Positions 95 to 64,000 of a DNA stretch of 64,000 nucleotides are shown one piece after another. Origin of the DNA: Amoebophrya sp. A120 (Eukaryota > Protista > Dinoflagellata); NCBI GenBank assembly GCA_905178155.1, contig CAJINV010000006.1, forward strand, positions 1,799,876-1,863,875. Direction: 5' to 3'. Within the stretch, counting starts at the first letter, position 1, and each line of letters starts with the position of its first letter. A program made the position numbers and the translations under genes. The notes under the pieces are model-generated. The model was not told the origin of the DNA. It searched no databases and saw nothing but the letters and a program-made list of their open reading frames with translations.

Positions 95-960
95 TCCCAA
101 AAAGATCCTATCAAGATCCTGGCCGCTGGGCTACTTCGGCGCCCCGAAATTACGAATCAGGCCCAATGTTTTGGCCTTCGCTCTGCCTCCTTTGTATAGC
201 AAATTTGCGCGGCCTTTTCTGGGCGTGTCGCATAGCTGCCGAGCTTTTCCTGGCCCCTCCCCCGCCTAGAATCTATGGATTTGGCGGCGCAAAAAAGTGG
301 CCAAAAAAGTGTCCTCTGGACAGGATCTTGATCGGAACTTTATCGGATCTTGAACGGAACTTTTTAGGAACTTTTTTTTGGCCTCTGAAGCTTTCGCCAT
401 ACCGCCGTGATTGGCGACTTTGAACATTGTTTGAACATTGGCCGGATCCTTTGTTCGGGGTTCAAGAAGTGGCCCTTCTCCCTTTGAAACACGGGCTGTT
501 TCTTTGATTCAACAAATTCAGCGGCTTCGTTTCTTTTTGAATCAAAAAAAAAACTCGCTTTGGGCTAGTGCGCCGTCTTTTGCTGGACCATTTCCGACCT
601 GGCCTTGTCCTCGGGCTCAGGTATATCTGGCCCATGGAGGCGAGATGGACCCTGCGGACGGGGGCAATTCCGTCCATTGCCGGGCCCCAGATTGTTCCGC
701 GTCGCGCCAGGGCTTTTACAACCGCGCGACCACTCGCTCGCCTTTGTTGGGCGTGGTTATTCGTCACTCCCAGCAAGCTAGCGCCTGTGGCAACGCCCGC
801 GGGGCGTCTGGCCCTTTCTCACATCTACCATACCTTCGTGTAACGCGCGTTACACGAGCGGTCTATGCTTCCCTTTCGTCGGCAGGCTGTCCCTGGAAGC
901 TACAGAGGGGCGGACGCTCCGAATCTTTCCGACCCCTCCCCCTGGGGTGTCGGGGGTAAT
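95..960. repeat. Probable repeat/TE-derived GC-rich segment upstream of the ZRANB3-like exon
   Basis: Inverted repeat AGATCCTATCAAGATCCTG (~103-121) vs CAGGATCTTGATCGGAACT (321-339); repeated GGA(A/T)CTT motifs; 22-bp perfect palindrome at 836-857. Confidence 0.45.
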
Positions 961-3900
961 CTTTTCAGGATCTTCGTGGGTTCTCAGGGCGTCGTCTGTG
1001 GCCCGTCGTGCCGCCAGTAAACTTCGGAACAACAACTTTTCTACCCCAGCACAGCCCTTGCAGGATGAAAATAACAGCACCAGAGGACCTGCTCTTTCAC
1101 GACGACCACCGCATGATTTTTATCAGCCAATAAACCAACTACCAGGTCGTGGACCCCCGGTAGGAGGAGGAGGAGGAGCAGGAGGCGCTCATGCTCAACC
1201 CCCACACCACCACCTCCCGTCAGCGACTGCGTATGGCGCAGCGCCCGGGCGGCAACCGCGTGGTGGTGGACTGCAAGAACTGCAAGCGGCAGCAACAGCT
1301 TCTGGTGTAGGTTGCACTTCTACGAGTACAATAAGCGGTGGGCAGCATGTTGTGTTTTCCGCACTGCAGCAACCCCCGGCGCAAAAAGGCGCCTCTCTAT
1401 TCGGACCAAGTACACTTACACAAAGTACTAGAGGGCTACACCGGCACATGTTACCGCCGCCGCTGGTGCCGGCGGGGCAAGTGCAACCAGGCCTTCCTGG
1501 CGGTAACAGCACTAGCAGCACCGCGGAAGGAGCTAAAAAAAATTTCCAGGAAATTATACCTGGTGTAGTACTACAAGAACCCTCGTCAAGTTCTTTCCCT
1601 TTCTCTGGACCTTCGCAGATTAAACCCAGCTCTGCTTCTGCTGCTGTCGTGCAGCCAACTAGATTTGGAGGTAGTAGCGCCTCTAGTGGGGCTGGGTTTG
1701 GATCATTTGGTAATCATAATCCCGCTGTAAAAATAAAACAGCAGCCGTCAACGCCCGTCGCTCCATTCGGTGCCGCTTTTGGAGGACCTAGTGCAGCTGC
1801 TGCGCCGACGTCGTTCTTTGGGGGTTTCGGCAATTCAAGTAGAAATGCCACTGCTAGTGGAACAAACATAGCGGTGGGGAATGCGGCGGCGCCTTCCTTT
1901 GGCGCCGCAACACCGGGTATTAACAAGCAGGCAACTAGTTCAAGTGGAAGTGGTTTCATCTTGTCCGCACCACAAGCGCAACAGCAGTTCGGCAGCTTCG
2001 GTGCGACGACGACGAGCACTAACACTGGCCGCACCACCGGATTTGCATTTGGCAACACGAGGACAAACAACGCTTTTAATACCAACCAGCCGGCGCAGTT
2101 CAACCAGTCGACCTCGCAATTTTTCCAGTCGACCTCGCAATTCGGACCAGTGCAACAACCACAACTAGGAAAAAGCGGAAATAATGTTACAGTGAACAAC
2201 AAAAATAGCACCACAACACATCCAGCTGTTTCACACCTACTACAGCTTGGGGCCCCGATGAGGAACCTGTACGAGAAGAATGTTCGCACGGCTGAACAAG
2301 AAATAGCGGAGATGCTGGGCGACAAGTACGTGAATGAAAGCGAACTGATGAACCGCCTACAGGTCTCCACCATGCGGCTGCTCTGTCGCGAACTGAAACT
2401 GACCATGGGCAACAGCAAGAGAGAGTGCGCGCTCGCCTTATCGGGTAAGGTTTTGCGGAAACGGGTGAATGAACTCGCGCGGGACGGGTTCGGTGGGGGA
2501 GTGTCGGGTGGGGGATCGACGACCTTCTGGTGGGCGCGGGAAGTAGTCGGGATAGGAGGTGATGGTGCTCCTGACAAAAGCAGCACAGTAGGTGAGAGGA
2601 ACGACCACCAGGAAATAAATGCAGTGGATGCTAGTATTGGAGGTGAAGACCGTTTCAATATGTTTTCCAGATCACGAACTCTTGTTCCCTATCCTTCGTC
2701 ACCCGAGAGAACATCAAATAAAGCCCGGATGATGAGGAGATCCTACAGTCCGGAGATAGTGAAGTACCGAAACGAGTTCCACCAGAAGGTCACCAGCGGT
2801 TTCGACACGGGGCAAAAATTGCTAAAAGTCATCATGAAGTGGCTGGATACCAGCAAGGGCGTGCAACGCCCCCGGATCAAGCATCTGGGTTGTTGGACGC
2901 CAATGTATACAAATTACTGCCCCCCCACGGGAACAACTGGAGGAGGGGCTGCACCTACTACAGGTGGACCGATGCAGACACGCAGCTTTGATGTTCATCG
3001 CGGCGGCGACATTTTCGTCTGCGAGGGCACGAAAAAGCCGGGCATTCACGACGTGGTTGCGGGAATTACCGCGAACGGAGAATATCAAAAGGAAAAATCC
3101 CCCCTCCTCATATCAAAACGAAGTTTCTGATGCTGGATTTGCGTACACAAATCAGATTTGCTAGAGAGGACTGCAGGCTTAGGCTGAGCCTGAGTAGGGA
3201 GGTTTTGGGCTAGGCGTTGAGCATGGCAAACGTCAAGTCTGTGGGGCCAGCAGCATCACAAACCGCCTGCAGAATGCGGCGGAGCCTGTGGAGTTGCGTT
3301 CTTGCAAGACAGAGGCCATCTGTGGCCACAAATCAGTATTGCAAATTTTCTGAGACGTGCCTTTTCGTCATGGGGAGGCTTTTCCTTACGATAGAGAAAA
3401 GGTGGACTCCATTCCCTGGCTGTACGCCGAATGCACAACGTGCAGCGGGAAACAGGACAGCCTGCTGAGTAACTTTGTCAACTACAACATGCGCGGCGGG
3501 AAGTGGTTGGCGAAAACCGGGTTTGCACAGCTGGAAAGTTTAAAATCTCCGCGTTTACTGCTGCTCTTCCGGCCGCGGATATGCATTGCAAATATCCCTG
3601 GATGTCTGGAAGGATGGAACTTGATGTGATGCGTCTGGTGGATCACACAAATTTTATCTGTCTTGCGTGATCAACAATGAGGCCCTTTCCTGACCAGCAT
3701 GAGAGGGAATCTTTCATGCAGGACAGGCATGATAGAGACCTCGCAGATGAATCTGTCATGCTATGTCCTGCATTCCAGACCGTATGGGGCATGGAAAGTC
3801 TGCATGACAAGTTTGCACTCTTCCAGACATCCAGGGATATTTGCACTTAATAGCGGAGCGTCGCCGACAACTTCTGCTGCGAGTTGCTGATTGATACCGA

Positions 3901-6900
3901 TTATGAATTGCAAAATCACCGTACCTACTCGTAGTAATTCCATTTTATATATGCATTACAAATCTCTTTCTGAAGGTAAATCAGCATTACAAATTAAATT
4001 TGTAATGCTGGGCTAATTTGTAATGCAATTTATACGTAGAAGTACGATGGTGCTTTTGCAGTTCATACCGATTCGGAAGAAGGAAAGCGGTGGATGGAGT
4101 ATTTTCTTCTGGAAAAATTTCAGTTCTCAGAACAACAGCCAGAACTTGGCGTTGTACAGCAGCGGGGAACAGAAGTTGCACTTCCGCAGGAACAGCGCGG
4201 TCTTGTCTCCAATACAGACCTACCATCATCTGGCATAAGCGCAGCAGCAGCTATTGGAGCTCCGGATCATCTTCATGTGAACAAGACGTCCACTGGGACG
4301 AGCTCTTTCAAGGATTATCTGCGTGTGGTGCACAAGAATGTTGTTCCTCCGGCGACCACTTCGGCCAATCAAAGTCTGGCATCTGCTAGTTCAACATCCG
4401 CCCAATTCTTTTTCAAGCTCCAGGATTACGACCAGGTTTTGCGCATGCTGCAAGAGTTCGTTTCCGACAAGTGGCTCCAGAAATGGCGGTGGTGGAAGAT
4501 GAGACCGCAGAACGAAGTTGTTATACACCACGTTGACCAGGGGAGGGCTGCGCCTTCCGTAGAAGTACGACACCAACCCCATGCTGCTCAGCAGGGAGGG
4601 ACGGTGCTGTTAAACACTGGAGCTGTACCTCCATCCAGTGCAAACGCAATGCATCAGTTTCAGCCAAACTATAGCTATCCAAACAGTAACTCCGCGCCCC
4701 ATCGTCGATATAATCTTCATGCTGGTGCGGGTGCGCCACCGCATGTTGTTCACCAGAGCTATGAACGGCAAAAGTATCGTACTCGTATAAATGCATTACA
4801 AATTTCCTCAGCATGAGAAATAAAATTTATTGTCATGCGGATTTACCTTAAGGAAAAAATTTGCATAACTGTGATTACTACGAGTGCGATACTTTTGCAC
4901 AGGATAAGAGTGCAACCACCACAACAGCCTCGTCTGCGCAACCGGCCGCATCGTCCTCTTCGACTTTGAAGCAGATTCCCGCCCATGAGCTGTGGGACAG
5001 AATCTGGATCGACCCGATTCCCGCCTTGCACTTCGAATTGCTGAAGCGGGACACCAGTTTGTTTGATGCGAGCAACAGAAGCAGGGCCTCGTCGAGAGCC
5101 ACGAGTGTGCTGGAATTAGTGCTGAAATTTTGCAAAAAAGTCGCGCACTTGAGTTGTAGTGTTTCGGAAAACACAGACCCGGGTGAGGAGGACATGAATT
5201 TGGAGAAAGTGCAAGAAAATAAAGATGACGTTCTTGCACATCAAGTTCTACATCTCTCCTTCAAGGAAAAGCTGACAAGGGCCCGGGAGCAGTTCATTGA
5301 GAACCACCGACATCTCAGCCTCGGGACAGACACAAACGAGATGGAGAACAATGTGGCACTTTACCATGTATGCATTGCAAAGGTACCGTACTTGTCCCAA
5401 TTGCAAATATGCATTTACAAATCTTCTTCTTAAAGGAAAATCCGCATTACAAATTCAATCTGTAATGCTAAGTCAATTTGTGATGCAATTTATACTTAGT
5501 ACGATGTTTTTGCAATGCATACCATGACATTCTACTGGACATTGATTCCTATGTCCGACAGCTCTACGACTCAAAAATCTGGACCCGCCTGGCCCGCTAC
5601 CAGCGCGAGGGGGTGCTGAGGATGTTGAAGACCAACAACTGTCGTGCGATTTTGGCGGACGACTGCGGGCTGGGGAAGTCGGCGCAGGCGCTGGCGACAC
5701 TGGCGGCTTTGCCCGCGGCGGAGGCTTTTCCGTATCGAAAGGAAACATCCCCCGTCCCCATATCAAAACGAAATTTCTGATGCTGGATTTGTGTGCACAA
5801 ATCCGAGCTGTCTTGCTGGAGAGCACTGCAGGCCCATACTAAGTGTGAGTAGAGAGGTTTTGGCGGCCTAGGCGCTTAGCATCAAAAACCTCCGTGCTGT
5901 AGGCCCAACAGCATGACAAACCGCCTGCACAATGCGGCGGCTGTCTGTGGAGTTGTCTTCTTGCAAGACAGACACGATTTGTGACCACAAATCAGCATCA
6001 CAAAGTTCCACAAATATACCTTTTCAGTATGGGGAGGGGGGATTTTTCCTTTTGATATCCCGGTGTTGATCATCTGTCCCGCGAGCTGCAGGAACACCTG
6101 GGCTATCCTGTGCAGAAGTATCGTACTCATATTGCAATCATGCATCACAAATCTTTTTCTCAAGGCAAATCCCCATTACAAATTTCATTTCTCATGCTGG
6201 GGAAATTTGTAAATGCATTTATACGAGTGCGATACTTTATTTGCAATGCATATGGGCGCTGGAAATCGAGAAGTGGTTATCGCCCTTGTTGAATCCGCTG
6301 GAAGTGTTCTCGACGAGATCGGGCGCGTTTGAAATCTATCAAGTGCAATAAATATGTCTGGGTCTGGAAGATTGCAAGAGTTGTCATGCTAGTCTGGCAT
6401 GACTCTGCACTCTGTATTGCGTGGCCACAAACAGCCTCTCTCGCCTGTCATCTCATGCCGCAACGCAGTTTCTCATGCGAAATACGCAGCACAGAAGCAC
6501 GAGAAAACTTGTCATGCTTGGCTGCACATTACAATTCACCTATTGATCCCTGACTTGCATCACAAGTAGCCAGACCCAGGCATATTTGCAATGCATAAAA
6601 TCTTTGAGGAGTATCGGAAAGCGGAAAAAACCGCGAAAGAGCGCAACGACCCGGAGTATTTGAGCTCCAAGAAATTTGTCTGCATCACCTCGTTATCCTG
6701 TGCAAAATTATAGTACTCGTACTAATTGCGTTTATGCATTACAAATTTCTTTTTCAAGGTAAATCAGCATTACAAATAATGCTGGGCTAATTTGTAATGC
6801 AATTTGTGCTAGTACGATGCTTTTGCATTGCATACTCGTACCACCTTGCTTCCCGCTGCCAGGACCAGTTTACGCAACACAAATTTCATCATTTCCCCTG

Positions 6901-9900
6901 CAAGCACAAACTGCATCACAAATTTCACCAATTTATTTGGAGCGCATCTGTCACTTGTCATGCTGAACAGGATTGGAGAAAAATTTTGTCATGCGGGAAA
7001 CCGCATTTTTATGTGCAGTACGGGAAAGTTAAAAAATTTACGTGTGGATCCTTTTCCACCGGATCCCGTGGAAATTCGCGATCGTGGACGAGATTCACCA
7101 GTTTCTCTATGCATTGCAAACACGTCGGGGTTTGGAAAAGTGCAACTTGTCATGCTGCCTCTGGACTCGAAAAAAATCTGTATAACTGCACGAGCAGCAA
7201 CAGGAACCCAGTTCATGCTGTGCGGAGATGGCATTTCTAATGCGGGGTAGGCATCAAAAAGCCCTCAAAAGATCCGTAATGCTAGGACATGCATCACGGA
7301 CGTCATGGGCCAAGCGAAACATGTGAACCAGTACACGAAGGGTACCCAATACGCGAAGGGTACCTACAACATACGAAAGGACCAGAATACATACGAAAGG
7401 AGAGAGGAGCAGCGAAATCCGCTATACAAAAAAGCAGTTTTTGTATGTACTGCCGGACGCAGACAACGGAGTTGTATGGTCCAAGAAAAGCGAGTAAAAA
7501 GCTGGCCGTGAGTGTGGCAGAGCAGCAAATTGCTACTCAAAGCAGGCCACAATGCACCGCGCGCGAAAAAATCGCTCCGCGGAACAACAGAAGAGCGCAA
7601 AAGGGGGCTTGCGGAGAGCGCACTGCGCACAAGGAGCGACACAAGCGGAGAAAAGGGGCGCTAAACCAAAAAAACTAGCGGCGCGCGCGCGGTGAGGACC
7701 TATTGCGGATCGATATTTTGTTAGCAGGCGGTGGGGGCACGCTTGCAGGCGGCGCTTCGAAAACATACAAGGGCCGAGCTTGTTTCGTGTGCGCGCTTTG
7801 GTAGCTAGCAGAGTTATCTCGCTCCTTAGCACTCTTGCTGCAGAGTCTACTGAAAGTGGAGAAGACCGAGGTGTAGCTCATCTTTTTTCAATGTTATTCA
7901 CTGAGTGGCTGTTTTGTTTTGGCTACGCAGCCACGTATTGCAGTCGGACAAAACCAGGGCAATAAAAAACGAGGGCGCAGGGGCATCGTAGGACCAGTTG
8001 CGTACTACGGGGCCCCGAGTAGTTACTGGGGGCCCCGTACTTGACGGCCGGGCCAGTGCTGGAAGGGTCCGGCGGGACCAGAAGGGGCCAGACAAAATGG
8101 CCATTTTATATGCACTGGCGATTTGTATGTGGCGTTTGTTCTAGGACAGGAAGGGGCAGGGCCCTTCGTGTACTGGCATACAAATATATTATGGGGGTAT
8201 CAGTAATTACTGGTTCACATGCATGATAAACCAGCGCGCTTTTTCTTTTCCAGACCCAGACGCTTTTGCAATTCATATCCTTTGTCCGGAGCTGAAATCG
8301 AAGTACCGGAGAAACCAAGCGATCGAGGAGTGGAGAACGCAGAGTCGCGTGGCCCAGGTGGATCGCAACCGAAACGGGGGTGACATCTCGAATATCCGGA
8401 AGCACACGATGGAGCTATTAAAGCGCATGTCGAAGATCCTGCTGCTGTCAGGGACGCCCCTAGGCTCCAGTAGCAGCGTCTCTGCGATTTTTGGAATCGC
8501 GCAGCTGATCGGAATCCCCATGACCAATGAGGGTGCTGCACGTGTTGGCGCAAGTGCTTTGATGTCCTCCCCGACCTCGTTTTCAAAGGACCTTGTCCAA
8601 GTGGGACCAACGAGAATTCCAAACTTTTTCGACACCCTGAACGAGGAGCACTTCCTAAAACGCAACTGGGACCTGTGCGAGCACACGTGCGAACGAGCCG
8701 ACGAGCTGGCGTACCTGTTTCGAAATTACCTGCCCATTATCCGCCGCGAAAAGCACGAGGTGCAGGGCGAAATCGCACGGTTGCCGCCGTATTTTACCAA
8801 AGTATATCCAATGCAATATAGTACGTCTGGGTCTGGAAGGATGCGAGGTTTGTCATGTTCGTTCGGCACGACCGAAGAACTTGTGATGCGTGTCCAACTA
8901 GAGACCCTTTGTTTTGCTTGTCATCCAAAAAACGCAGCTTGTCATGCCGAAACTGCAACACTAAGAAAGCAGCGCAGATACTTCCCATGCTTGGCTGTGC
9001 ATTACAGAGCATTCACTATTCTGAACTCAGCATTACAAGTTTCCAGACCCAGGCATATTTTCTCGGAATAAAGTAATTCCGGTGAAAATTTCCAAGGAAG
9101 TGTTTGACTTCGTAAACGACTTACGCCCCGAGGTGGTGTTTCTAGAGGGAGAAGAGAGCAACTACAATACAGGGAACAACGCAGGAGATACAAACAAGAG
9201 TGCAGTTAATTCCGGAAGAGCAGCAGCACAAGCTGCAGTCGACAAGACAAATTTCGTTATCGCGACCGAGTATGAGCGTACCGGGTACATGAAAATCCGC
9301 GAGCTGTTTGCCCAGTACAAGAAAGACCCGTCCCATGGCACGGTTTCTGCGGGCGCCGCTGCAAACTCGGAGTCCTTCGCCTCAAGGGGTTTGTACGAGT
9401 GGCTCAAAAGCGACATTTTCGGGAAAGCGAGAAACCGCCGGAACAGTGTGGGAGAGACAGTGGAGGAGATCGGTCAAACGTTAGAAGATGACAGTGATCC
9501 GGAGGACCAGGACGCGGACCGTTTTGGTTTTCGCTCTCAACCTGAAGCAGCTGGGCGGCATGATACAACTGGCCAGAACACCAATACACGACAGCACGGA
9601 CCACACGGAGTAGAAAATAAATTCTCAAACCGGCACAAGAAATTCATTTTTTTCACGCGTCACCACCGGGTCACCGACTTTCTCGCACAAGTCTTGCTGG
9701 AGTTGCGACACTATGAACTGCAAAAGCCAATCGTGCGTAATAGTAATCGCATTACAAATTTTCTCAGCATTACAAATGGAACTTGTCATGCCGATTTACC
9801 TTGGGATGGAGATTTGTGACGCATAAATGCGATTACAACTACGAGTGCGGTACTACTTTCGCACAGGATAGTCACAAGCTCCGTATCGACGAGATCCGAC

Positions 9901-12900
9901 AGATTGACGGTAGAACGCCAGAGCAGGATCGCAAGGAGACGGTCGAGGAGTTATCAAATGCAAATATGTCGTCCTCTGGGTCTGCCGGGTTGCCGCAACT
10001 TGTGATGCGTATTTTGGATCGGACGAAAATCTGTCATGCGTGGACAGCAAAAATAACTTATGATCTGTCATGCGTGGGCAGCAATAATAATAGCTTACTT
10101 CTCGTACTCGTCACCAAAATCTGGAATTTCTTATGCGGGATTGTAGGCATTGGGGAAGCTCGTCAAGACCTGTGATGCTTTTGCTCGCATGCCAGAGCTT
10201 CTTGGTCACGCAAAAACAGCATGACAAAGTCAAAGTCCGCACTCTTCCAGACATCCAGGGATATTTGCTGTTGATAGGAATGGTTCGCGCACGAGGACTA
10301 CGCCGAGGAGACCCTGGCTCTGGTTTGCGGTCAGGAAGTATCGTAAGGAAAAATCCCTCCTCCCCATATCGAAAAGGAAATCTGTGATGGTGATTTGTGA
10401 CCACAAATCAGCTTTGTCTTGCGTGCAAGGCAAAGGGCACCCATTGGCGCATTGTACAGCGAGTCTATCCCGCGTTTTCGCCTATGTCAGACTTGTTTCG
10501 CATGCTCAGCTGCTAGCCGGATGCGTACCCAAATGGGCTTAGAATATGCCGACACGCTCTCGCTGCAATACAAAGTGCATTGGTGTACACAAATCCAGCA
10601 ACGCAAATTGTCTATTTGACTATGGGGTGGGGGCTTTTTTCACTTTGATAGGAAGCCATGGGGACGGGAGTCAACGGGCTGCAGATTTCTTCCTGTGCGA
10701 TTTTTGTGGAAATTCCGCTCTCCGCGGACCTATTTCGCCAGTGCTTCTCGCGCTTGCACCGGCATGGGCAGAAGGCGAAGCAGGTGGACATTTTCGTTCT
10801 CTCCGCGGAAATATCCTGTGCAAAAGCATCGTACTCGTACTAATCGCAGTCCTGCAAGACAAATTTCTTTTTCAAGCTAAATCATCATGACAAATTCCAT
10901 TTGTCACGCTGACCTAATTTGTATTGCAATACTACGAGTACGGGACTTTTGCAATTCATAGGAAAACTCGAGCAGTATCGACGGGAGCTGTGTCGGCGAC
11001 GGCATTGAGGACCGAACCCGCTGGGAAACGATTTTGGATCAGCAGGGCAAAAGCTCCGACTTTTTCTACAAATTCGACGACACTCTAGTGCCGGCGAGTC
11101 AGCATCTTGACGGGGGTGGGGGAGGTACGCAAATATTGAATGCGACAAGAAGACCCGACGATCAAGATCATCCTGGAGCTTCAACATTATGTGGGACGAC
11201 TGGATCAATGCTACATCCAGTGGTCCCAGCGGCACTACACCCAGGTGGCAGTGCCTCGATAACAACGACCTCCTCGCAATTCGTTGCGCAAAATAATAGC
11301 CTCCACCAACCCGCCCAGTTCCTCCCTTGTGGTCATCCACCAGCGACGGCCGTTGTTGCGGCACAATTCTACTCAGCTGCGCCGGGTCGTTCTGCTGTTT
11401 CCGCGCATCAAGGTGGGACGTCCAATCCGACCGCCCATCTCTCTGCCGCCGCCGAACAACCTTCTGCGGCCGCAAGGAGAACAAGCAAGAACTACACAAC
11501 TACTGCAAACGATAGCAGAAGCGGGGTTTCGAAAATCCAGGAGATGAAGCTGAAAATGGATTCCGCTCTGCGGATAGCCTCGAACGCGGAGAAAGCTGTC
11601 TACGAGAAGCAGGAGTTGAAGCTGCGAGATATGGGATTCTCAAACCTTACATTCTCAACTGTTTACATGTTTTATTTTTGTCATGCAAAATTACCATCAG
11701 ACAGCATCGAGATCGACGCGATCAATGAGTACTTCTACTTCGCATGACGAATAATTATTGGTTGAAGCGCCGAACATAGCATGGAGATTGATCTGAGCCA
11801 AATCTGTCGTGCAAGACGCGCAAGTAGTTTTGTTTGCAATGCACTTGTTTTGTTATTCCTGCATCTTCACAAATTTATGTAAGCACAAACAGTTGAGAAC
11901 GTAACGTCTGAGAACGCCATATGGGAGAGAAACCAACTGCGCAGTGGAGATCCTGCTTCGTCCGGCGACTTGCAGCGGCAAAAGTGGATCGACAAGTTGA
12001 ACTTCAACGAGGACAACTACCGATTCCTCGTGCACCCTCTGACAGAGCACTTGCACATGTTTGAAGTGCTGGCCCCAGAAGATCATGTTCTACTTGACGA
12101 AAAGAACGGAGCTCGTTCAGGGAGTGCGGTAGTGGGGAGCTACAACAAAGACGAGGAAGGAGGAGCAGCGTCTCCAAGCGAGGGACCACCAGCACGCGGG
12201 GACAATCATTTCATAGCTGCGACCACAACGTCGACATCATCCACTTCAACCACGAACCAGGTTTTGGAAACCATCGACCACAGCTTTTGTTTTGACAGCC
12301 AGGAATCCCGGGTGCTGCTCGATGTCGGTCAAGAAATATTAAGCCAAGAGCTCGTCGCTTCGCAACCTCCGCCGGGCGAGGTGGGTACAAAGCAGGTGGG
12401 CAGCGGTACTGCAGCTACTGCACCTGTTCTTTCCGCTGACACGACGACGGTTGGTAGCACGACCAAGGCACGTCACAGGAGAGTGACGAAGCGACTGCGG
12501 TTTATTCGGTACTTTTCGCAGGTTTCCAACGCGGATATCGGGGAAGCGAGGGTGCGGGCGGAGGTCGCGGAGGATAGAGATACCGGTCGTGTAGTGGCAC
12601 CATCGGCGGCTGGTGGTCGTGCAGATACTGGCGATGCGATCAACACTAGCAACGGGACAAATCAGGACGAACGAGATCATCTTCCGTCGTTGCAGATCCA
12701 GCAACAGACCGCCAAGAATGAATCCGATATCAGGAATATCCAAGAAAAAAACATTGTAGGTGTAACTTTTTTGGAGGAACAGCATTACAAATTTGTCTGG
12801 CATGACAGCAAAAACCTGTCATGCGCGGATAGTACGGCAAAACGCCCTTTAATGGACCCTATGATGCACGCCAAGCATGACAGACGCAATCATCTTGCGT

Positions 12901-15900
12901 GTTGCGCATCACAAATTTACACTAACAACGTTTTTTTCTTTGATAAGGAACTTCCTGCTCCTCACCCTCGCGCGCGATTTTTATGACCTGCTCAAATCGG
13001 TTACCATCTCAAATCGGTTACCATAGAATCTGGATTTTGTCTTGCATGAACAGCATGAGAAACCAATAGAGGGCTCCGCTTGCTGCAATACAAATTTCGC
13101 CAGATTCTCATGGGGTTTGAAGCTCCGGAACTTCTCATGCGCAATCCTATGGGACTAGACTAGATCATGCACTTCTTGCATCACAAATTTCCATATTCTA
13201 TTGTAGCGTTTCAGATTGTAACACCTGAGCAGGTTATAATTTTTGGGACACGTTTCTCCGCATTCCGGGTATCCGCAGGTGCGAGGTGGCCGAGTACCTG
13301 ACCGCGAAGGAGCTCGTGAAGTTCCTGCCGAACTACTGCGGAACACAGGAGGCGCTGAAACGGTATGAACTGCAAAAGTATCGTACTCGTAGTATTGCAA
13401 CACAAATTACCTCAGCGTGACAAAAAGATTTTATTTGTCATGCTGATTTAGCTAGAAAATGAAATTTGTCTTGCATGACTGCGATTAGTAAGTACGAGTG
13501 CGATGCTTTTGCACAGGATAAACGGCCGGACGGAACAAAACTGTACCTAGACGACACGGACGAGAACAGGCTGGCCCGATTAAAGGATACGCATCGCAAG
13601 AAATATGTCTGGGTCTAGATTTGTGATGCGAAATTTGAAGGACAGCGAGGAGATCTGTAATGCATGAATGCGATGGTCAGGCGGTTTTTTTGTTGTTGTA
13701 CTGTAAGCGAGTTTGTCATGCGTTTTGCAATTGGATCGTGCAAATAAGCCTTGCGAAACTTCTGATGCTGTTATGCCGTACAACACTGGGACACTCGACG
13801 AGTTTCAGCAACACAAATTTGTTCCAGACCCAAAAATATTTCCATTTGATAAAGGAGAAGAACTTTGTAAACGGAGAAATCTGCGAGGAGAAGATGCGAA
13901 TGATCAAAGAGAAGGGACTGGAAAAGGTAAGTACAAGTAGCATTGAAAAGGAACCAGGCCCCGGAGGGGCGAACGAAGGAGATCATGATCATGATGGAAA
14001 AAACACAGTAAAGACATCAAGTGGGCCGCACCTACACGACGTCGAGGGATCCTCGAGCCGGCACCCGGAAGAGATGAATAACGAAGTGGACGAGAACATC
14101 AAGCAAAGCAAAAGACGCAGGCTTTCATCGGATAATATGGAACAAGGTGGACCAACTTTCGTCGACATCCGTTGGACGGAAGCAAAGCTTCTAGCCCGCG
14201 GACACCAAATGGGAGGGAATTCCAATAACCAGGGTGGAGGTGTAACAACTGCTAGAGCTGGAGGTCCGGCGTCATCTGGAAATCCAAATCCACCTGGTGA
14301 TAATGATCATAGTTCCTCTCTTGTTAAAGACAGCACCAACACCAATACCGTCCTTGTGCCCTTCTGCCGCACAACGAAGTCGCTGTATTGCAGCAAGGAA
14401 TCCTGCTTGAAGTTTGCGATTGCGCACGACCCCGAAAAGTGGGAGAATTGCCGCGGTGCGGAAAATAACAACTGGATCGTCTTCGGGCACTGGAACGTCA
14501 TGTACTGCAGTGCGAAATGTTACGAAGACACCCGGCTGACCGTGTCGCGTGCGGAAGGCAGGGCGCAGTGCTGGCGGTACGAAAGAGGCGTTTGTCAGGC
14601 TTGTAGGTTAGACACGGAAAAGTTGCGCGAAGCCTTGGTTCGCAAATTCCGTCCGATGGCTACGTTGACCGATTTGAGTTATCGAAAGCAAAAATCCCCC
14701 CTCCCCATATCAAAACGAAATTTCCGATGCTGGATTTGTGTACACAAATCCGCGCTGTCTTGCTGGAGAGCAATTCAGCCCCATGCCAAGTGTGAGTAGA
14801 GAGGTTTTGCTGGCCTGGGCACTTAGCATGAAAAACATCCGCGCTGTAGGCCCAACAGCATGGCAAACCGCCTGCACAATGCGGCGGTTGTCTGTGGAGT
14901 TGCCTTCTTGCAAGACAGACACGATTTCTGGCCACAAATCAGCATCACAAATTTCCAAAATGGGGAGGGGGAATTTTTCCTTTTGATATGAGTCGCACCT
15001 TCACCGCGGAGGGGCTGTTACAGGGGTGTGTGGACGAGAACGTGGACGAAATAAACAAGGGCAGTGTATTATCAAAAGTAAAAATGTCTGGGTCTGGAAA
15101 CTTGTGATGCTGGGTGGCGTCTCATGATGAGGCTACAAATGCTGGCTCAGCATGACAAGTTTCTGAGCTCCTAGGTGTTGCCTATTCTGCATGACAAACT
15201 GCGCTTCTGCATCACAGAAAAACGGAGCTCTTGAGTAACGTGCATGACAGATTTAAGAGGCGTACCAGACAAGCAAAACAAACGTGAATTCTTCCAGACC
15301 CAGACATTTTTACATTTGATATGTATTTTTCGCGGATGACGGAGGTGGAGATGACAAGTTGGATGAACCAGCAGGAGAAACAGGTGATAAAAGCGACGTT
15401 GACGAAATACAGCTAGATGAAATGGCAACAAAAGCAAAACCAAGAGAAAACGAGACGGAAGCGGAGAGACTGCAACGGGAGTTGGATGAGGAGCTGGGAT
15501 TAGGCGGCAAGGATGATCTTCAGCGCAACGCGAAGAACGACATCAACTCTTCCGCCAGCGGCGCTGCATCAAGCTCTTCCTCTGCTGCGATAGTACAACA
15601 TAACGGCGGAAACAAGCGCGCTGCCGGTGGTACAAACAACAGCAAGGCAAGGCCGAAGAAGAAGCCGAGGCACTTCAAGAAAAAGACGAATCGGGCCGCG
15701 AAAATAAATCCGCATGATTTCTACTGGGATTTAGAGAACGATGATGCGGATCAATATTTCGAAAAGCCCGTACCGGAGGCATGGAACTACAATTTGAGCA
15801 CGATATCGCAGCACGAAAAAAGTGTCACAGTTACACAATTGTTGTGAATTCAGCAACACAAATTTTTTCTGCATGAGAGAAAAAGTTTGCAATGCAGAGA

Positions 15901-18653
15901 ACATAAGGGAAAACACGTTTTGAAATGAGGCTCGCAAGCATTTTGCGCATGACAGAGCGTGTCTCTGTTACTTGGTTTGCAGCACTATGTATAACTGTAA
16001 CACTTTTTTCTTTCCATACACGAAGCAATGGCGACATTACCTAACCGAGGTCATCACCGGCCGTGCGCATCGGTCCGGACTGCTAAATCCCCTGTGGCAG
16101 GCGGACCACGTTTTAGGGGTGATGTTTGGGGGCGGACAGTGCAAGAAGGACAATTTCCAGACCCTCTGCATCTCCTGCCACTATCAAATGCAAAAGTGTC
16201 TGGGTCTGGAAGACCGCAGAAGTTTGTCATGCTGTTTTTCCGTGACACGAAAGTTCTGGCATGGAGGCCCTAGCACCACAGGTCTTGAGAAGTAGGCATC
16301 TCAATGCCTAATCCGCATGACAAGTCCCCTCTTTCGGTGACACAAAGTGGGCCACTTTTGCTGTCCGCGCATGACAGATTCTCGTGTGGTTTGAAATGCG
16401 CATGACAAGTTCGCATCCTTCCAGACCCAGACATATTTGCAATGCATAGCCACGCCAAGAAAACGAAAGAGGAGCAGGCTTTGAGGAAAGAACAGAATCT
16501 AGCCAAGAAAAAAAAGGCTATCAAAAGTAAAAATGTCTAGGTTTGGAAGAATGCGCGATTTGTCATGCAGCTTTTCCATGACCCATGAGGTCTGGAATGC
16601 GAGACCCAGCATGACAGATTCTGTGCGACCTTTCTCATGCCTATCCTGCATGAGAAACTGCCTCCCGACTTGGTCAAAACTGGACGACTTTTGGTAATCA
16701 TGCAACACAGATTTTTGCATGCTGCAGATTTATCATGACAGGTTGCATTCTTCCAGACCCAGACATTTTTACACTTGATAAAGGCGGAAGAGGAACGACG
16801 GGAAAAAAAGCGAGAAGAAAAATTGCGTATCAAATGCGAATTTATATGTCTGGGTTTGGAAGAGTCGGAGTTTGTAATGCTAAATCTGATCGACGCAATT
16901 TTGTGTACTGTTGCATGACCAGGAAAACAAGAAGCTTGTCAAAACTTGTTAAGATGCTAGGGCCCGTACTATTCCAAATCTTCCTGGCCGTGTGCAACCT
17001 GCATGTCAAACCCCGTTCTCTTCCAGACCCGCGGACGTATTTGCAATTGATAATGCGGGAGAAGGAACAAAAGCTAGAGATCGGCGGAAAAAGAGCGGAC
17101 GAGGGCATGGATAGTGCTAGTGCAGCTCCTGTGTTAGTTCAACACGAATTGAAAAACGTCCCCACCACGACAACGTCGACCACTACGAAGCGCGGCCGCG
17201 GTAAGAAAGGCAAAGGGCCGCCGGCGAAAGTGAAAAAAGAAGAACTGGCACAGCAACTACATCAACCAGAACGGAACCAGAAAGAGCAACATGATTCCCG
17301 CGGACACCACCTGCAGCAGCTTCAGCACGACGATACCAGCGTTTTTGGCAGGTTTTTGATGGAACAGCAGAAAAAAGAGGCGGACGAAGCACGGGCTGGA
17401 ACAAGCGGTTTTATTTGCCGTGCGGATGATGAAGATGACGCAGCTGCTTCTGCTTCGGTGCATGAGTATAATGATAATCTTCAACATCATGAGCCGGCAA
17501 CTCATCAGGGAAGCAGTTTAGTACGACCTGCTCAGGGCAGCTACCAAGTAAAGAGCAGCAGTAGCAGCAGCAGCAGCAGTTTTGTCGTAGATCCTGCAGC
17601 TTCCGCCAGACCAGGAAGTCCTGCGGCGCTAGAAAGAAATCCGAACGTCGTGGTACCGCCAACGATGAACAAGCGGAAACGCGATGAAAGACCGGAAGAT
17701 GGTGTTTTGCATGGAGCAGAAAATCACGGTCAGGAGGAGCGGAAGCAAAAGCGAGAACAAGCAGCAGGAGTACAGCGATCTTCTTCGAAGCAGGGACGAG
17801 ATCGTGAGCCTCCTGGAAAAATAAAAGTGGACGCGAGGAAAAACGACGATGGTTCTACTTTTCCAAGTCAACCGTCAAATCCAGATAGCATTTTCGACCG
17901 CTTTCGGAAGTCTACTAAGTCGAACACACCCCCCGAGCAGGAGCGAGCCGCTGATGTGTTGCGTCAAGGCACCAACAAGAAGCTGTCGGCAGCTGCTGGT
18001 GCTGCTAAGGCGAGTAAAGCGACCACAAGACCGTCGCGTATAGAAGTCGCCGAAGACCCCGAAGCAGTTCCAGTTCTTATTAGGGTGCAAAACTTCCCCT
18101 CCTCGTCCTCATTTGTAGTATGGCATGAACATCAGCAGCAGATGAAAATGTAAAAACCAGCTTTCGCACGACATTGTAGTGCTGTGTGGGCGAGGACCAA
18201 AATCTGTCAACATGCAATCAGTGCCAAGAGATAGCATAGATAGTGGGTCAACGTCAAGTAGGTATTTTGCATGACAAATTAGGGGGAGGGAAAGTCCTCG
18301 TGCACCGCCATAGCTCCGTCCACCCGTCGACGAGGTGCTGGGAAAAAAACAACGTCCGAACAAGCGGGACGACCTTCTCACGGCCGTGGTTTACATGTGA
18401 AACAGGACGAAGAACACGAGGTGATTGACTTGATCTCCTCGTCCTCCGACTCTGATAACATCATCGTTATGAGCGATATCCATTGCAAAAGTATCAGTAT
18501 CGTACTATTACAAATTGCATGACAAATTTGGTCAAAACGAGAAACGCAATCTGTCATGCAGATTTAGGTTGGGATGAGCCACACGTGTCATGCGTGGCTG
18601 CGATCAGTTGTACGAGTGCGGTACTTTTGCAGTGGATAAGCGACAGTGAGTAA
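947..18653 (+). CDS. ZRANB3: ZRANB3/SMARCAL1-like SNF2-family annealing helicase with C-terminal HNH endonuclease, ~3,300 codons, split by 29 non-canonical TIR introns; true start uncertain and possibly upstream of the window
   Basis: Removing each element plus 5 nt gives 9969 nt (3323 codons) open from 947 to TAA 18651-18653. Reconstructed motifs: LARYQREGV, AILADDCGLGKS (I), FPVLIICPAS..W (Ia), AIVDEIH (II), LLLSGTP (III), KFIFFTRH (IV), IDGRTP, QCFSRLHRHGQ (VI), YCSAKC..ERGVCQAC and WQADHVLGVMFGGGQCKKDNFQTLCISCH (HNH, as in ZRANB3). Elements: 3083-3393, 3580-3852, 3902-4067, 4760-4906, 5369-5521, 5733-6057, 6104-6252, 6337-6597, 6694-6834, 6871-7050, 7108-8277, 8805-9070, 9712-9870, 9952-10276, 10339-10650, 10812-10960, 11630-11921, 12737-12945, 12982-13238, 13364-13520, 13588-13851, 14680-14988, 15070-15321, 15804-16018, 16182-16448, 16519-16780, 16828-17052, 18078-18312, 18477-18638. 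Possible AG acceptor TCTTTTCAG ending at 969. Confidence 0.9.
7324..8217. mobile_element. Non-autonomous TIR element (~0.9 kb) nested in the family A introner 7108-8277
   Basis: Perfect inverted repeat CATGTGAACCAGTA (7320-7333) / TACTGGTTCACATG (8208-8221). Subterminal repeats TAC.CGAAGGGTACC and CATACGAAAGGA. The host consensus AAACATGCATGA is split at this point. Confidence 0.8.
12982..13238. mobile_element. TIR introner family H
   Basis: TATGACCTGCTCA...TGAGCAGGTTATA, TSD ATTTT. A related copy at 31642-31974 shares the internal CTAGATCATGCAC..CTTGCATCACA. Confidence 0.82.
14680..14988. mobile_element. TIR introner family C (~310-325 bp)
   Basis: TIR TATCGAAAGCAAAAATCCCCCCTCCCCAT...ATGGGGAGGGGGAATTTTTCCTTTTGATA, TSD TGAGT. 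Other copies start at 3083, 5733, 10339, 49249 and 62873. Confidence 0.92.
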
Positions 18654-19619
18654 AAACAAGTCCTGCAGCAGCTTCTTGTGAAACACGACCCAAGGGTTGC
18701 AGTTACAGTGCACGCGCTTCCCGAATTCCATGCAGTACTATCCCTCTGAGAAAATAAATGTTGACAGCACTACGACTTCATCCTTGGTGTATATTTGTTC
18801 AGTTGTTCTGTCCTTCTCCTTGCCCTATTGAAAAGAGTAGACACTATGCGGAAAGTCGGTTGGCAACTTCCTCTTGTCGTCCAAACATGAAATATTGTTA
18901 ATATGACTGCGAGAATTTTACTCGACGTCGTTGAGCAGTACAACTATGACTTCATCTGCATTCTCGGTTTCGCTGCTTCAGACCTGCTTTCCCCGACGTA
19001 TTTTCGTGGTCTGTCGGTCATCATCTTTTGGTTTACTTATTTGGCCCGCAAAATTGAGTGACGTACTATCATCGGTCGTATTTTTCTCTTCGTTCTTCTG
19101 CAGAGCAGTTTTTTCGTACTAGTGCAATTGTAATGCTCATCGGTGTTGGTCGTACCTTGTTGCTTATCGCGGCGCGAACTACCCGTGTATGATCGTATGT
19201 CTTCGTACAACCGGAACCGTGGTAATTATAGTCGTGACAACCTGTAGAACAAGAAAACAAGAAGCAGTAAAAACTTATCTCGTCGGTTCGACGTGCACGT
19301 TGCTCGTACATCAAGTACCTAGAACTACTGGCCGTTGCTCGTCCGGAGTCACAAGTTTCTTGTGACAACTTCCAGCACCAGCGTATGACGTGGAGCGCTG
19401 TATCTCATGCGTCTTTTTCCACAAGCAAACGAATTTGAATTTCTTACAACTCTCAGGAGCTTCAATCGCCAAGCTTTGAATAAACAAAGTTTTCGGTCGA
19501 CGACGCCCCTCTCCTACAACAACTTTTTAAACTCCTTTAAACAAGCATCGAAGAAACTTTTTCCGTTACAACCGCAAACAACTTAAAGAACTTTTTCAAA
19601 AACAAATCACAATTTCCCT

Positions 19620-20350
19620 ACTTACTTACTTCTAACAAAACGATATCAAAGACGACCCAGAACTGCCTACTAACGACCTCCCAGAATTCCTTACTAACGA
19701 CCCCCCAGAATTTTTGCTATAACATAACAAAGACCTCCCAGAAGTACTGCAACGAAACGACCAAGAATTTCTACAACTAAACGACCAACCCGATATCAAA
19801 TGCAAAAGTGTCTGGGTCGGGAAGAGTGGAACTTGTAATGCTGGTGTCTGCGGATAATTCTAAAAGAAAAGTATCTGTGTTGCATGAGCAGCGAGAGGAG
19901 TCCAGTTCTTGGCACGCGCTGAGGGCATTTCTCATGCGTGATAAGTATGAAGAAGCTTTCGAAAAATGTGTGATGCTAGCACCTGCATCACAGACCTCAC
20001 GGGGCATGCAAAAACTGCATGACAAATCTCGCAATCCCCCAGACCCAGACATAGTTGCAATTGATATCCCAAGTACTGCAACTAAACGAACAACCCGAAG
20101 CACTGTAACGAGAAGAACCAGAATCAAGTACGCATCAAGCCGCAAGAGCACTCGAGGAACGAAGCGCATTAAGAGGAGTTTAGGTTTACAACCAAGACGA
20201 AGAGGGAGAACCGCAAGAGGAGTTTACAACCGAGACGAACAAGAAGAGAACCACAGCAGCTGCAACATTTTGCAACCGAGACACGACAGGAAGGTGGAGG
20301 ACAAAAAAACAATATCAAGAAGAAGTAGGTGTTTTTCAACATCAGCCTAA
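19620..20350 (+). pseudogene. Decayed repeat-protein coding remnant
   Basis: 24-30 nt repeats translate as NDLPEFL/NDQEFLQL/NEQPEAL with in-frame TAA stops. Carries a family A element. Confidence 0.35.
19794..20066. mobile_element. Family A element in a decayed repeat-coding region
   Basis: TATCAAATGCAAAAGTGTCTGGGTC...CAGACCCAGACATAGTTGCAATTGATA, imperfect TSD CCCGA/TCCCA. Confidence 0.85.
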
Positions 20351-21368
20351 CGAGACCGGCAGGAGAAGACGAGGTTGGAAAGCCTTCACGTATTTTTCAG
20401 CAGGTATTGGAATTATCGTCGTAGTAAATCGCTGCTCCGACCTACTCTGTGTAAAAAGATAGGCGGAAACAGGGACACAGCGTCCCAGGTGAATGCACTT
20501 CCAGCTGCGTCATCGATCTTTGCACCGCCGGCGCGCTACACTTGCATAGCCGTGTAGGTACTGCATGATGGCGGATTAAAAAAGAATATTAGGAGAAGTC
20601 GCGTCTCCCTACTTTTTCTTCACCCTGTTGCTTTCCCACATCTGTGAAATTTAATGTGAGCAGCTTGATGCGGCATGACCATGGCAGAAAACCCTACATC
20701 ACGATCGAACAACATCACGCACAGGAAAGAGACAAAACAAACTTCAACCGGAATCGCTCCCCGAGCATCAACAACGCCGAAAAGACTGGGGCGACCACGA
20801 CACGTTGCCTGAACCTGAGGACCAGGTAATTACGTTTGATGTACATCGACAGTCGATTCGACATGCTTAACCTTATGCGTAGGTGATTTTGAAAGTAGAG
20901 GAAGCTGCGTTACACGGTTTGTATTTCTTTGTAATGCGAGGAAAAGTTGATGTGAGTGAAACTGTAAGACGTTGCAAAAACGAGCAGAAGAACCTGAGCA
21001 GTCCCGAGTGTTACCGTCCAGCGCCATCGTGAAAGCATGTGGTTTGCCTGGACGCAGGCAAGACCTAGTGCTAATTACTTCATGGACTGTCGATACACTA
21101 TTTATAAGTACCGAAGAAAAATTGCATATTCTCTATCGATCTTTCCAACAGATCAAGACGCTGACCTACCGCTCTACTCCGATTGGAGGTGGATTAGATT
21201 TAGTACGACTTGCACAACACGTCCGTGGCCAAAGAAAAAAATAAAAATACGTTTTTACGGATTTTGTATCTGTGAAGAGATAGTCAATCCTCGCCGCACC
21301 ATTTGCAGCACAACCTTTGCCCAGCCTCGCGGCTTTTCCGAATCCCAAAAAAATCCTCGTGCAAGGGC

Positions 21369-62391: not shown

Positions 62392-64000
62392 ATGAAGCGT
62401 TCCCGACAGAATGCGGGTCACGACGAGGACCAGGTCTCCTTCGTGAACAACGACACAGCTCCGGCCCAAAACGACGTCGACATGATCGATGTAAATTTCG
62501 AGTTATGCTGTGCAAAAGTATCGTACTCGTATAAATGCAGGTCTTGCATTACAAATTTCTTTGTCAAGGCAAATCAGCATTACAAATTTTATTTCTCATG
62601 CTGAGGAAATTTGTAATGCATTTATACAAGTATCGGATACTTTTGCAGTTCATACGAGTTCTACGAACCCTTCGAAACCGACTTCCACGGGGTCCGGCTA
62701 TGCATTGCAAAAGTATCGTACTCGTATAAATGCATTACAAATTTCCTCAGCATGAGAGATAAAATTTGTAATGCAGATTGAGCTTAAGAAAGGGATTTGT
62801 AATGCATGATTGCAATACGAGTACGATACTTTTGCACAGGATACCGGCAGCTTCTGAACAAATCCTTCGAGTTATTACAATGAAAAATGCCCCCTCCCCA
62901 TATCAAAAAGAAAATCTGTGATGCAGATTTGTGGTTACAAATCAGCTTGGTGTTGCTAGAAGGCAAAAGATGCGGACTGAAGTGCTGCCTAGCGTGGGAA
63001 GGCCGTGCTGCTCCAGCAGGACAGGAGGCAACTGGAAGTGGGAAACAGCATGACAGATTGCCTGCAATTCAGCCCGCAGCTGCGTCTACTCTTGCTGGCT
63101 TTCTAGCAATACAAGTCGAGTTGTGTACTCAAATACAGCATCACAAATTGCGTTTCCGATATGGGGTGGAGGCTTTTTTCCCTAGGATACGAGTGGTGCA
63201 AGACGGATCCCATTTTCGATTTGACGGAAGTGACGGACGTGTGCTTATCAACTGTAAAAATGTCTAGGTCTGGAAGATTGCCAGGTCTGTCATGCATATT
63301 TTGAATGACCCATGATGTCTGTGATGCATGCCCTAGCATCACAGATTTTTAGAGGACCTTTTGATGCCTCTACCGGATGAGAAACGCCCACTCCGCGTAG
63401 CACAAACTGAACTCCTCTTGCTGGTCATGCAATACAGATTTTTTTACCTTCCAAAGACAGCATCACAAGTTGCAACCTTCCAGACCCAGACATTTTTGCA
63501 TTCGATAATGCTGCAACCAGGGCAACATCGGAACGGTGTTGAAGACTACGGATCAACTATCAAACGAAAAAAGTTCGTCACGATCACGCGTGCGCACTTT
63601 TGCAATACAAAATTTTCTGGCATGCGTAAAAATGCATCACAGGCAAACTTCATAAGGGATTTCCCTAGACGAGTTTCTGCAAAGGACGGAAAAGCTCAAG
63701 CTGTGATGCTAAAAGAATTTGTAGTGCAAGTTCGTGACTGCGGCAAACTTTTTTCTCTCCATATCAACAGGCGGGCGCTGGCGAACAACAGATACAAGGT
63801 GGCGGCAAAACTGCTTCTGGCGAGCAAAACAACAATCTTTCCTCTTCCGCCGGCGCGGCCGCGGCTGGCGCGGCCGGGGGCAGGGGAGCAACGACCACGA
63901 CGCCACAGGAAACGGGTTTATTCGGCATCACGACTGCAGTGAATCTGAAGCAGTACAAGTCCTCATTCACCTATCAAACAAGAAAAAGTTCGTCGCGATC
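62392..64000 (+). CDS. BCP1: BCP1/BCCIP family protein, 5' part, runs off the window
   Basis: Reconstructed MIDVNFEFYEPFETDFHGVRQLLNKSF..FDLTEVTDVCCNQGNIGTVLKT..GLFGITTAVNLKQYK matches the BCCIP/Bcp1 N-terminal pattern (FEF..D(F/Y).G(I/V)..LL; L.DL...Q..IG.V.K; FG....NL). Elements: 62504-62654, 62699-62843, 62873-63189, 63246-63507, 63558-63763, 63972-end. Confidence 0.85.
62699..62843. mobile_element. TIR introner family B (representative of ~33 copies, mostly 140-170 bp)
   Basis: TIR TATGCATTGCAAAAGTATCGTACTCGTAT...ATACGAGTACGATACTTTTGCACAGGATA, TSD CCGGC. Other starts: 3902, 4760, 5369, 6104, 6694, 9712, 10812, 13364, 18477, 28394, 32571, 33231, 33743, 34234, 34858, 35622, 36592, 39392, 41596, 42775, 44996, 48171, 48856, 49720, 50160, 52104, 52330, 55687, 58655, 59146, 59832, 62504. 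Confidence 0.93.

What the first reader, a model, noticed from the sequence alone, without database searches (positions are those of the whole stretch)
4755..10281. Differences between the two 5-bp repeat copies are synonymous inside conserved domains
Seen: where the flanking repeats differ in the helicase region, either copy gives the same peptide. AGC/AGT Ser (4760); TTT/TTC Phe (5733); TTT CTC/TTC CTT Phe-Leu, two changes (7108); CGA/CGT Arg (9712); GAG/GAA Glu (9952). Also GTG/GTA Val in BCP1 (63246) and ACA/ACG Thr (32836). Low-complexity regions show replacements, often conservative (E/D, K/R, L/M, V/L), and I saw no stops. A purely intronic copy should mutate at random. Inference: both copies are under coding selection, so either copy or a chimera can reach the mRNA. 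Exceptions: 6871 (Q/L) and 11630 (R/W). The sample is small.
Basis: partly seen in the sequence, partly recalled or inferred. Interest (0 to 1): 0.85.

Follow-up and report, generated by a model that had tools for sequence, protein, structure and literature searches.

The report
Fixed splice cut inside transposon repeats
These are the known transposon-like introns of the marine parasite Amoebophrya A120; where their two 5-base flanking repeats differ, RNA-like contigs and a deposited gene model fit one fixed cut that keeps four bases of the left copy and one of the right, so the excess of silent differences likely reflects ordinary selection on the exon side rather than free use of either copy.

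Summary
The window is Amoebophrya sp. A120. The repeats flank its published introner elements: TAT…ATA inverted ends plus a 5-bp direct repeat (DR). The bias is weaker than claimed: 13 of 38 framed mismatches are synonymous, 6 of 8 in domain cores and 7 of 30 elsewhere, and 3 of 6 when conservation is defined by an ortholog. 'Either copy' is not supported. One fixed junction (left bases 1-4 plus right base 5) reproduces 909 of 909 residues of the deposited transcript-based protein; every other constant junction misses 2-8. Both informative RNA-like joints agree, and one is a left/right chimera. The intron therefore likely reads N-TAT…ATA-NNNN. T+2/A+3 and A-7 are invariant in 84 of 84 elements, in a pattern tied to transcription direction, suggesting spliceosomal recognition without GT-AG. 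Minor alternative junctions are not excluded (core P=0.048; no raw reads).

The parts
782..18653 (+). Host gene A: SNF2-type helicase with C-terminal HNH-like domain (SMARCAL1/ZRANB3-like by recall), stop-to-stop ORF of 3377 codons after removing 29 elements; true start codon not determined
   Evidence: ORF; blastp to AT5 ortholog P0001 E=3e-99 and 8e-80; exon 5523-5726 weak SNF2 hit E=3e-4, below cut-off; ortholog SNF2 E=2e-15, HNH E=0.006 below cut-off
4755..4911 (+). Element 4760-4906 with DR AGAGC/AGAGT; mismatch at DR position 5, Ser/Ser; low-complexity region; inferred intron 4759-4910
5728..6062 (+). Element 5733-6057 with DR TTCCG/TCCCG; position 2, Phe/Phe; helicase core; inferred intron 5732-6061
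6866..7055 (+). Degenerate element 6871-7050 with DR CAGTT/CTTTT; positions 2 and 3, Gln (left, shared with the AT5 ortholog) versus Leu (right)
7103..8282 (+). Element 7108-8277 (1170 bp, enlarged) with DR TTCTC/TCCTT; positions 2 and 5, both silent (Phe, Leu)
9707..9875 (+). Element 9712-9870 with DR GACAC/GTCAC; position 2, Arg/Arg
9947..10281 (+). Element 9952-10276 with DR GGAGT/GGAAT; position 4, Glu/Glu; not aligned to the ortholog
11625..11926 (+). Element 11630-11921 with DR CGAGA/TGGGA; Arg (left) versus Trp (right)
16823..17057 (+). Element 16828-17052 with DR TTGCG/ATGCG; RNA-like contigs keep left base 1 (Leu, as in the ortholog)
   Evidence: joint 16823->17054 in X5 and X6
18073..18317 (+). 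Element 18078-18312 with DR GTTCT/GCTCC; RNA-like contigs keep left base 2 and right base 5: a chimera, junction after DR base 2, 3 or 4
   Evidence: joint 18074->18315, both=2, in X5 and X6
27261..37225 (+). Host gene B (deposited protein P0002, CAD7953560.1, no Pfam match) with 19 elements; 10 are informative for the junction, and 31642-31974 (DR TTGAT/TTGCG) allows only 4 left + 1 right
63241..63512 (+).
   Evidence: exon 62302-62496 gave no Pfam hit

Best explanation
These are Amoebophrya A120 introner elements whose 5-bp direct repeat is likely an insertion-site duplication, and they are likely spliced at one fixed register that keeps bases 1-4 of the left copy and base 5 of the right copy. 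The intron would then read N-TAT…ATA-NNNN: its first base is left-copy base 5 and its last four bases are right-copy bases 1-4. Each DR position thus has one exonic and one intronic base. Mismatches accumulate with age from two sources, free drift of the intronic base and mostly silent drift of the exonic base, so constrained domains show a synonymous excess without the intronic base being read. Inferred mechanism: a U2-type spliceosome that ignores the terminal dinucleotides and measures from the inverted repeat. The 5' arm supplies U+2, A+3, U+4 of a 5' splice site with a free +1; the 3' arm supplies an invariant A at -7, a candidate branch point at fixed distance from an AG-independent 3' site. 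Shown: element anatomy, frame restoration, removal in RNA-like contigs, fit of the 4+1 register, direction-linked conservation of the termini. Inferred: transposon origin of the DR, exclusivity of the register, spliceosome involvement, branch point.
For: 4+1 reproduces 909 of 909 residues of P0002; constant registers 0, 1, 2, 3 and 5 miss 8, 7, 4, 2 and 5; 10 of 19 elements informative, chance of all fitting if the junction were uniform 0.0037, or 0.0016 with the two RNA-like joints, about 0.01-0.02 after allowing for six possible registers. That model was built from transcript alignments (PMC7789003 section 25). Joints 16823->17054 and 18074->18315. Ortholog keeps the left residue at 6871 and 16828. 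Overall 13 of 38 synonymous fits the fixed-junction null of 0.39 (P=0.76). Elements with DR mismatches are more diverged from their nearest relative in the window (Spearman -0.31, P=0.005, 81 elements). Termini: departures from T,A,T are 0,0,6 in 5' arms and 3,1,0 in 3' arms of 84 elements (Fisher P=0.005), although elements lie in both orientations (best hits 45 same strand, 31 opposite). All nine predominant A120 non-canonical pairs in Table S4 begin NT. snRNP27 is not detected in A120, U1 snRNA is not detected, and SNRNP27K loss goes with +4 U in yeasts (PMC10581693 abstract).
Against: Domain cores show 6 of 8 synonymous, borderline above the fixed-junction null (P=0.048; 0.02-0.09 by transition bias), and only 2 replacements in about 83 replacement sites, both in one element. 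Only 2 informative joints were seen, 15 of 38 joints were displayed, both runs are one sample, their RNA status is the tool's guess, and contigs drop rare variants. None of the finding's own five DRs is among the displayed joints. A gene model reports one path per gene and may rest on the same RNA data. PMC7789003 Fig. 3 legend calls the splice sites variable relative to the hairpin. Only 33 of 84 elements fit a yTnAy branch motif at -7. The terminus test is post hoc, and ends were sought near TAT. Table S4 may carry read-mapper bias at ambiguous junctions.
Confidence: 0.72

Rival explanations
1. Leaky register: 4+1 dominates, but a minority of transcripts use another cut within the DR, so the mostly intronic bases are sometimes translated and are under weak coding selection in conserved domains.
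For: 6 of 8 core mismatches silent and 7 of 8 at third codon positions; likelihood 0.31 under both-coding versus 0.041 under fixed junction; no stop in any single-junction variant, 0 of 25; PMC7789003 describes variable sites.
Against: 3 of 6 with an ortholog-based definition, where the fixed junction fits better (0.28 versus 0.11); replacements tolerated at aligned positions 6871 and 16828; absence of stops has chance P 0.16; no second joint at any element among 15 displayed rows.
Confidence: 0.17
2. One reading: either whole copy or any chimera reaches the mRNA freely, so both copies are fully coding.
For: Silent bias in the helicase core (5 of 7); a chimera is seen.
Against: All 12 informative junctions fit one register, P about 0.002 if uniform; non-conservative differences such as A/P, R/W, D/G, P/L persist.
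Confidence: 0.03
3. The register is fixed but set by a non-spliceosomal route: an endonuclease/ligase acting on the inverted-repeat hairpin in RNA, or removal at the DNA level in some life stage.
For: Only 1 of 81 elements is GT-AG at 4+1 and none at other registers; U1 snRNA not detected; long terminal hairpins; the runs with joints are only guessed to be RNA and no DNA run was laid.
Against: Direction-linked conservation of T+2/A+3 and A-7 matches spliceosomal positions; nearly all spliceosome proteins and U2, U4, U5, U6 are reported in A120; the elements stand in the assembled genome; reverse-transcriptase skipping cannot explain a frame that needs removal of 29 elements.
Confidence: 0.08

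Closest known systems
Amoebophrya A120 introner elements (PMC7789003; abstract, passages, sections 11, 12, 25, 32, supplement part 3 and passages read; figures not seen)
   Same: Same genome and elements: inverted repeats starting TAT, seven variable bases, then an A run; 3-5 nt direct repeats over the exon/intron border; non-canonical ends; repeated families.
   Different: The paper leaves the border 'variable' or 'unknown' (Fig. 3 legend) and does not use the word synonymous in its main text. Its phrases 'four nucleotides upstream' and 'located at 1-5' may already imply the 4+1 register; Figs S19-S23 could not be seen.
Polarella glacialis and Symbiodinium introner-like elements (bioRxiv 10.1101/2020.10.14.339549; passages read)
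   Same: Inverted repeats with target-site duplications; splice sites recruited from the duplication or across the duplication/element border (class 12 uses the last duplicated base plus the first element base).
   Different: Those need G at +1 (GT, GC, GA) and AG at the 3' end; here +1 is any base (A24 T22 C21 G17) and the last two bases are free.
Euglena nonconventional introns (PMC12501133; passages read)
   Same: Direct repeats make junctions 'slidable'; non-slidable cases reveal the rule; a fixed spacer separates the junction from a paired motif.
   Different: CAG-CTG motif pair; different spacing; tested genetically there, only inferred here.
Fritillaria borealis non-canonical introns (PMC13326754 abstract; PMC11282704 passages)
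   Same: Transposon-derived introns with inverted repeats and duplications, removed by an adapted spliceosome.
   Different: Preferred ends AG-AC and AG-AT, duplicated U2AF and retained U1; A120 has no preferred +1 or 3' dinucleotide and U1 is undetected.

Membership tests
Amoebophrya A120 introner element | Occurs in the A120 genome | tested here: met
   Exon 31980-32564 is 100% identical to a protein named Amoebophrya sp. A120
Amoebophrya A120 introner element | Terminal inverted repeat starting TAT, 7 variable bases, then 3 or more A | tested here: met
   Profile of both arms of 84 elements; A at positions 11-14 in 65-78 of 84; definition
Amoebophrya A120 introner element | 3-5 nt direct repeat at the border | tested here: met
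   52 of 84 perfect 5-mers
Amoebophrya A120 introner element | Repeated families | tested here: met
   76 of 81 elements have a relative in the window; 54 near full length, median identity 80%
Amoebophrya A120 introner element | Removed from transcripts | tested here: met
   6 of 15 displayed joints skip exactly one element plus 5 bases in contigs of runs guessed to be RNA
Canonical U2 spliceosomal intron | GT-AG ends | tested here: not met
   1 of 81 at the 4+1 register, 0 at others
Canonical U2 spliceosomal intron | U at +2 and A/G at +3 | tested here: met
   T+2 and A+3 in 84 of 84 at the 4+1 register; partly built into the search for TAT-like ends
Canonical U2 spliceosomal intron | Branch-point adenosine and lariat formation | not testable with these tools
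   A-7 in 84 of 84, yTnAy context in 33 of 84; no lariat reads available
Non-autonomous TIR DNA transposon (MITE) | Inverted ends, target-site duplication, short and non-coding, either orientation | tested here: met
Non-autonomous TIR DNA transposon (MITE) | Cognate transposase in the genome | not testable with these tools
   No genome held; PMC7789003 reports putative transposases in A25 only
   One joint per element among 15 of 38 displayed; contigs only
   12 of 12 informative junctions fit one register

The most novel reading that the evidence does not exclude
A120 runs a spliceosome that has dropped both G+1 and the 3' AG and measures both cut sites from the transposon's own terminal TAT/ATA (U+2 A+3 U+4; branch A at -7), which lets a palindromic element insert at any 5-mer, in either orientation, and still splice out cleanly; a small leak in this ruler would put intronic repeat bases under coding selection.
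Probability: 0.4. Interest if true: 0.75.

Novelty: already known. Interest (0 to 1): 0.42.

Why it matters
How A120 removes tens of thousands of introns without GT-AG ends and without a detected U1 snRNA is an open question in the describing paper. Mismatched direct repeats are natural markers that fix the cut position, and here they point to one register with candidate 5' site and branch-point bases, which makes the question directly testable with existing RNA-seq and lariat sequencing. A practical point: translating these genes with a whole left or whole right copy gives wrong residues (5 and 8 of 909 in gene B).

Tried and rejected
No whole genome is held, so no genome-wide test. Raw-read runs X7 and X8 laid only 7 and 4 reads and gave no joints; no holder was on record as RNA. 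RNA evidence exists only for 3001-20200; the stretch holding gene B has none beyond the deposited model. 9 of 15 displayed joints link intron-internal places and were set aside as pieces of paralogous elements. Searches for the deposited proteins of gene A and of the coiled-coil gene at 44901-51646 did not return them; searches covered proteins up to 2000 aa only. P0002 has no other cluster member. Dropped before counting: doubtful pairings 52330-54267 and 59146-59438, candidate 38891-39020, unpaired ends (for example near 19570, 29206, 39162, 43685, 54410, 54659, 55432); 15 of 84 elements had no reliable frame and are outside the synonymous counts. Rejected: selection for DR identity as the cause of the silent bias (it would cut both classes of mismatch alike; inference); drift of intronic bases towards GT (G at +1 in 5 of 14 position-5 mismatches, uninformative); fewer mismatches at DR position 4 (4 of 51; P=0.04, overall chi-square P=0.35) left as a weak lead. 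No earlier notes on this genome.
Full report
What the window is. It is eukaryotic DNA dense in short repeated elements with inverted ends TAT…ATA and a 5-bp direct repeat (DR) outside them. Exon 31980-32564 is 100% identical to a protein named Amoebophrya sp. A120 (CAD7953560.1). PMC7789003 describes exactly these introner elements for A120: inverted repeats starting TAT, seven variable bases, an A run, and 3-5 nt DRs over the border (section 11). I paired 84 elements by their ends, after dropping two doubtful pairings, one weak candidate and several unpaired ends; 52 of 84 have perfect DRs and 51 of 420 DR positions differ. Removing 29 elements plus one DR copy each yields one 3377-codon ORF at 782-18650, orthologous to an Amoebophrya AT5 protein with an SNF2 domain and a weak HNH match.

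Checking the observation. But 4760 and 32836 are not in conserved domains, 9952 does not align to the ortholog, and gene A has further replacements at 16828 and 18078. Over the 69 of 84 elements with an assignable frame, 13 of 38 mismatches are synonymous (codon positions 10/10/18). In domain-defined cores (helicase, HNH region, the gene at 62302-64000) it is 6 of 8, elsewhere 7 of 30 (Fisher P=0.011). Against random mutation (0.25) the core excess is real (P=0.004). That is the wrong null: with one exonic and one intronic base per position, silent change in the exonic base adds mismatches, and the expectation is about 0.40. Against it the whole set is unremarkable (P=0.76) and the core borderline (P=0.048). 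Defining conservation by local identity to the AT5 ortholog gives 3 of 6 (P=0.46). No variant makes a stop (0 of 25 elements), which has chance probability 0.16.

Which copy reaches the mRNA. Contigs of two runs of one sample, guessed by the tool to be RNA, were laid on 3001-20200; 15 of 38 joints were shown, 6 skip one element plus 5 bases, and 2 of these are at mismatched DRs. At 16828 left base 1 is kept. At 18078 left base 2 and right base 5 are kept, a chimera with the cut after base 2, 3 or 4. None of the finding's own five DRs was displayed, and the raw-read runs X7 and X8 gave 7 and 4 reads and no joints. The deposited protein P0002, from a transcript-alignment pipeline (section 25), spans 19 elements, 10 informative. 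Keeping 4 left bases and 1 right base everywhere gives 909 of 909 residues; registers 0, 1, 2, 3 and 5 miss 8, 7, 4, 2 and 5; element 31642 allows only 4. The chance that all fit if the cut were uniform is 0.0037, 0.0016 with the two joints, about 0.01-0.02 after allowing for the choice of register. The AT5 ortholog has the left-copy residue at both places where a replacement can be polarised (6871 Q, 16828 L); the unnamed homolog P0003 also has Q at 6871. Caveats: a model gives one path per gene, may share data with the contigs, and contigs hide rare forms.

How it likely works. With the 4+1 register the intron is N-TAT…ATA-NNNN. Only 1 of 81 is GT-AG; +1 and the last two bases are unconstrained. 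The elements sit in both orientations (45 same-strand and 31 opposite-strand best hits), so neutral decay should hit both arms alike. It does not: departures from T,A,T number 0,0,6 in 5' arms and 3,1,0 in 3' arms (P=0.005). T+2 and A+3 at the 5' end and A-7 at the 3' end never vary in 84 elements. I infer a U2-type spliceosome reading U+2 A+3 U+4 from one arm and a branch A at fixed distance from the other. In support, all nine predominant A120 non-canonical pairs in Table S4 begin NT (possibly mapper-biased), snRNP27 is undetected in A120, and SNRNP27K loss is linked to +4 U in yeasts (PMC10581693 abstract). Against, only 33 of 84 fit yTnAy, and the test is post hoc. That the DR is a decaying insertion-site duplication fits the link between DR mismatch and element divergence (rho -0.31, P=0.005).

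Rivals. A leaky register (0.17) would explain the 6 of 8 core value, which fits both-copies-coding about 7 times better than the fixed null, but the ortholog-defined set favours the fixed null. Free use of either copy (0.03) conflicts with 12 of 12 informative junctions. A non-spliceosomal or DNA-level route with the same register (0.08) was not tested: no DNA run was laid.

Comparison and novelty. The elements are published for this genome. The paper calls the border variable or unknown (Fig. 3 legend), though its wording on DR and inverted-repeat positions may already imply 4+1; its figures could not be seen. Polarella elements recruit splice sites from duplications but keep G+1 and AG (passages). 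Euglena work uses non-slidable junctions in the same way (passages). Fritillaria has an adapted spliceosome (abstract; review passages). PMC12130899 and PMC12005148 (passages) add TE classes and show that other Amoebophrya strains use canonical introns. Six searches of the held library returned no paper that, in the listings or passages I saw, tests synonymy of DR mismatches or states a fixed register or branch point for A120; subscription papers are not covered.

Verdict. Observation partly confirmed, interpretation partly supported (chimera yes, either copy no). Known elements, with a useful and testable refinement of their splice register. Interest 0.42.

Noticed in passing
window 7108-8277, 28394-31588, 55687-58371: Three elements are greatly enlarged (1.2, 3.2 and 2.7 kb) by internal sequence unlike other elements, two with internal tandem or direct repeats; the frame is still restored on removal at 7108, and the deposited model splices out 28394. 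The 28394 element spans the N gap 29481-30033.
   Followed up: partly
window, all 84 elements: DR position 4, the last exonic base and last intronic base under the 4+1 register, has the fewest mismatches (11, 12, 10, 4, 14 by position); weak, possibly a splicing constraint.
   Followed up: partly
window 37206-37433: An element with a 3-mismatch DR lies at the end of gene B; the deposited protein departs from my in-frame reading here, so its 3' end uses a different junction.
   Followed up: no
window 20400-26800: GC-rich element-free stretch with a 645-codon stop-to-stop frame (22780-24717) and overlapping long frames; no Pfam hit for the two frames tested.
   Followed up: partly
window 44901-51646: Coiled-coil gene with a recurring short motif and 15 elements; no database protein found between 460 and 2000 aa; one weak sub-threshold Pfam repeat match.
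   Followed up: partly
window 52330-54267 and 59146-59438: Element ends that pair poorly (4 DR mismatches each); probably nested or truncated elements; left out of all counts.
   Followed up: no
window element regions: Element sequences attract far higher contig depth in the RNA-like runs than the exons around them (for example about 977 at 4806 versus 2-8 on exons), summed over paralogues; could reflect unspliced or stable excised introns.
   Followed up: no
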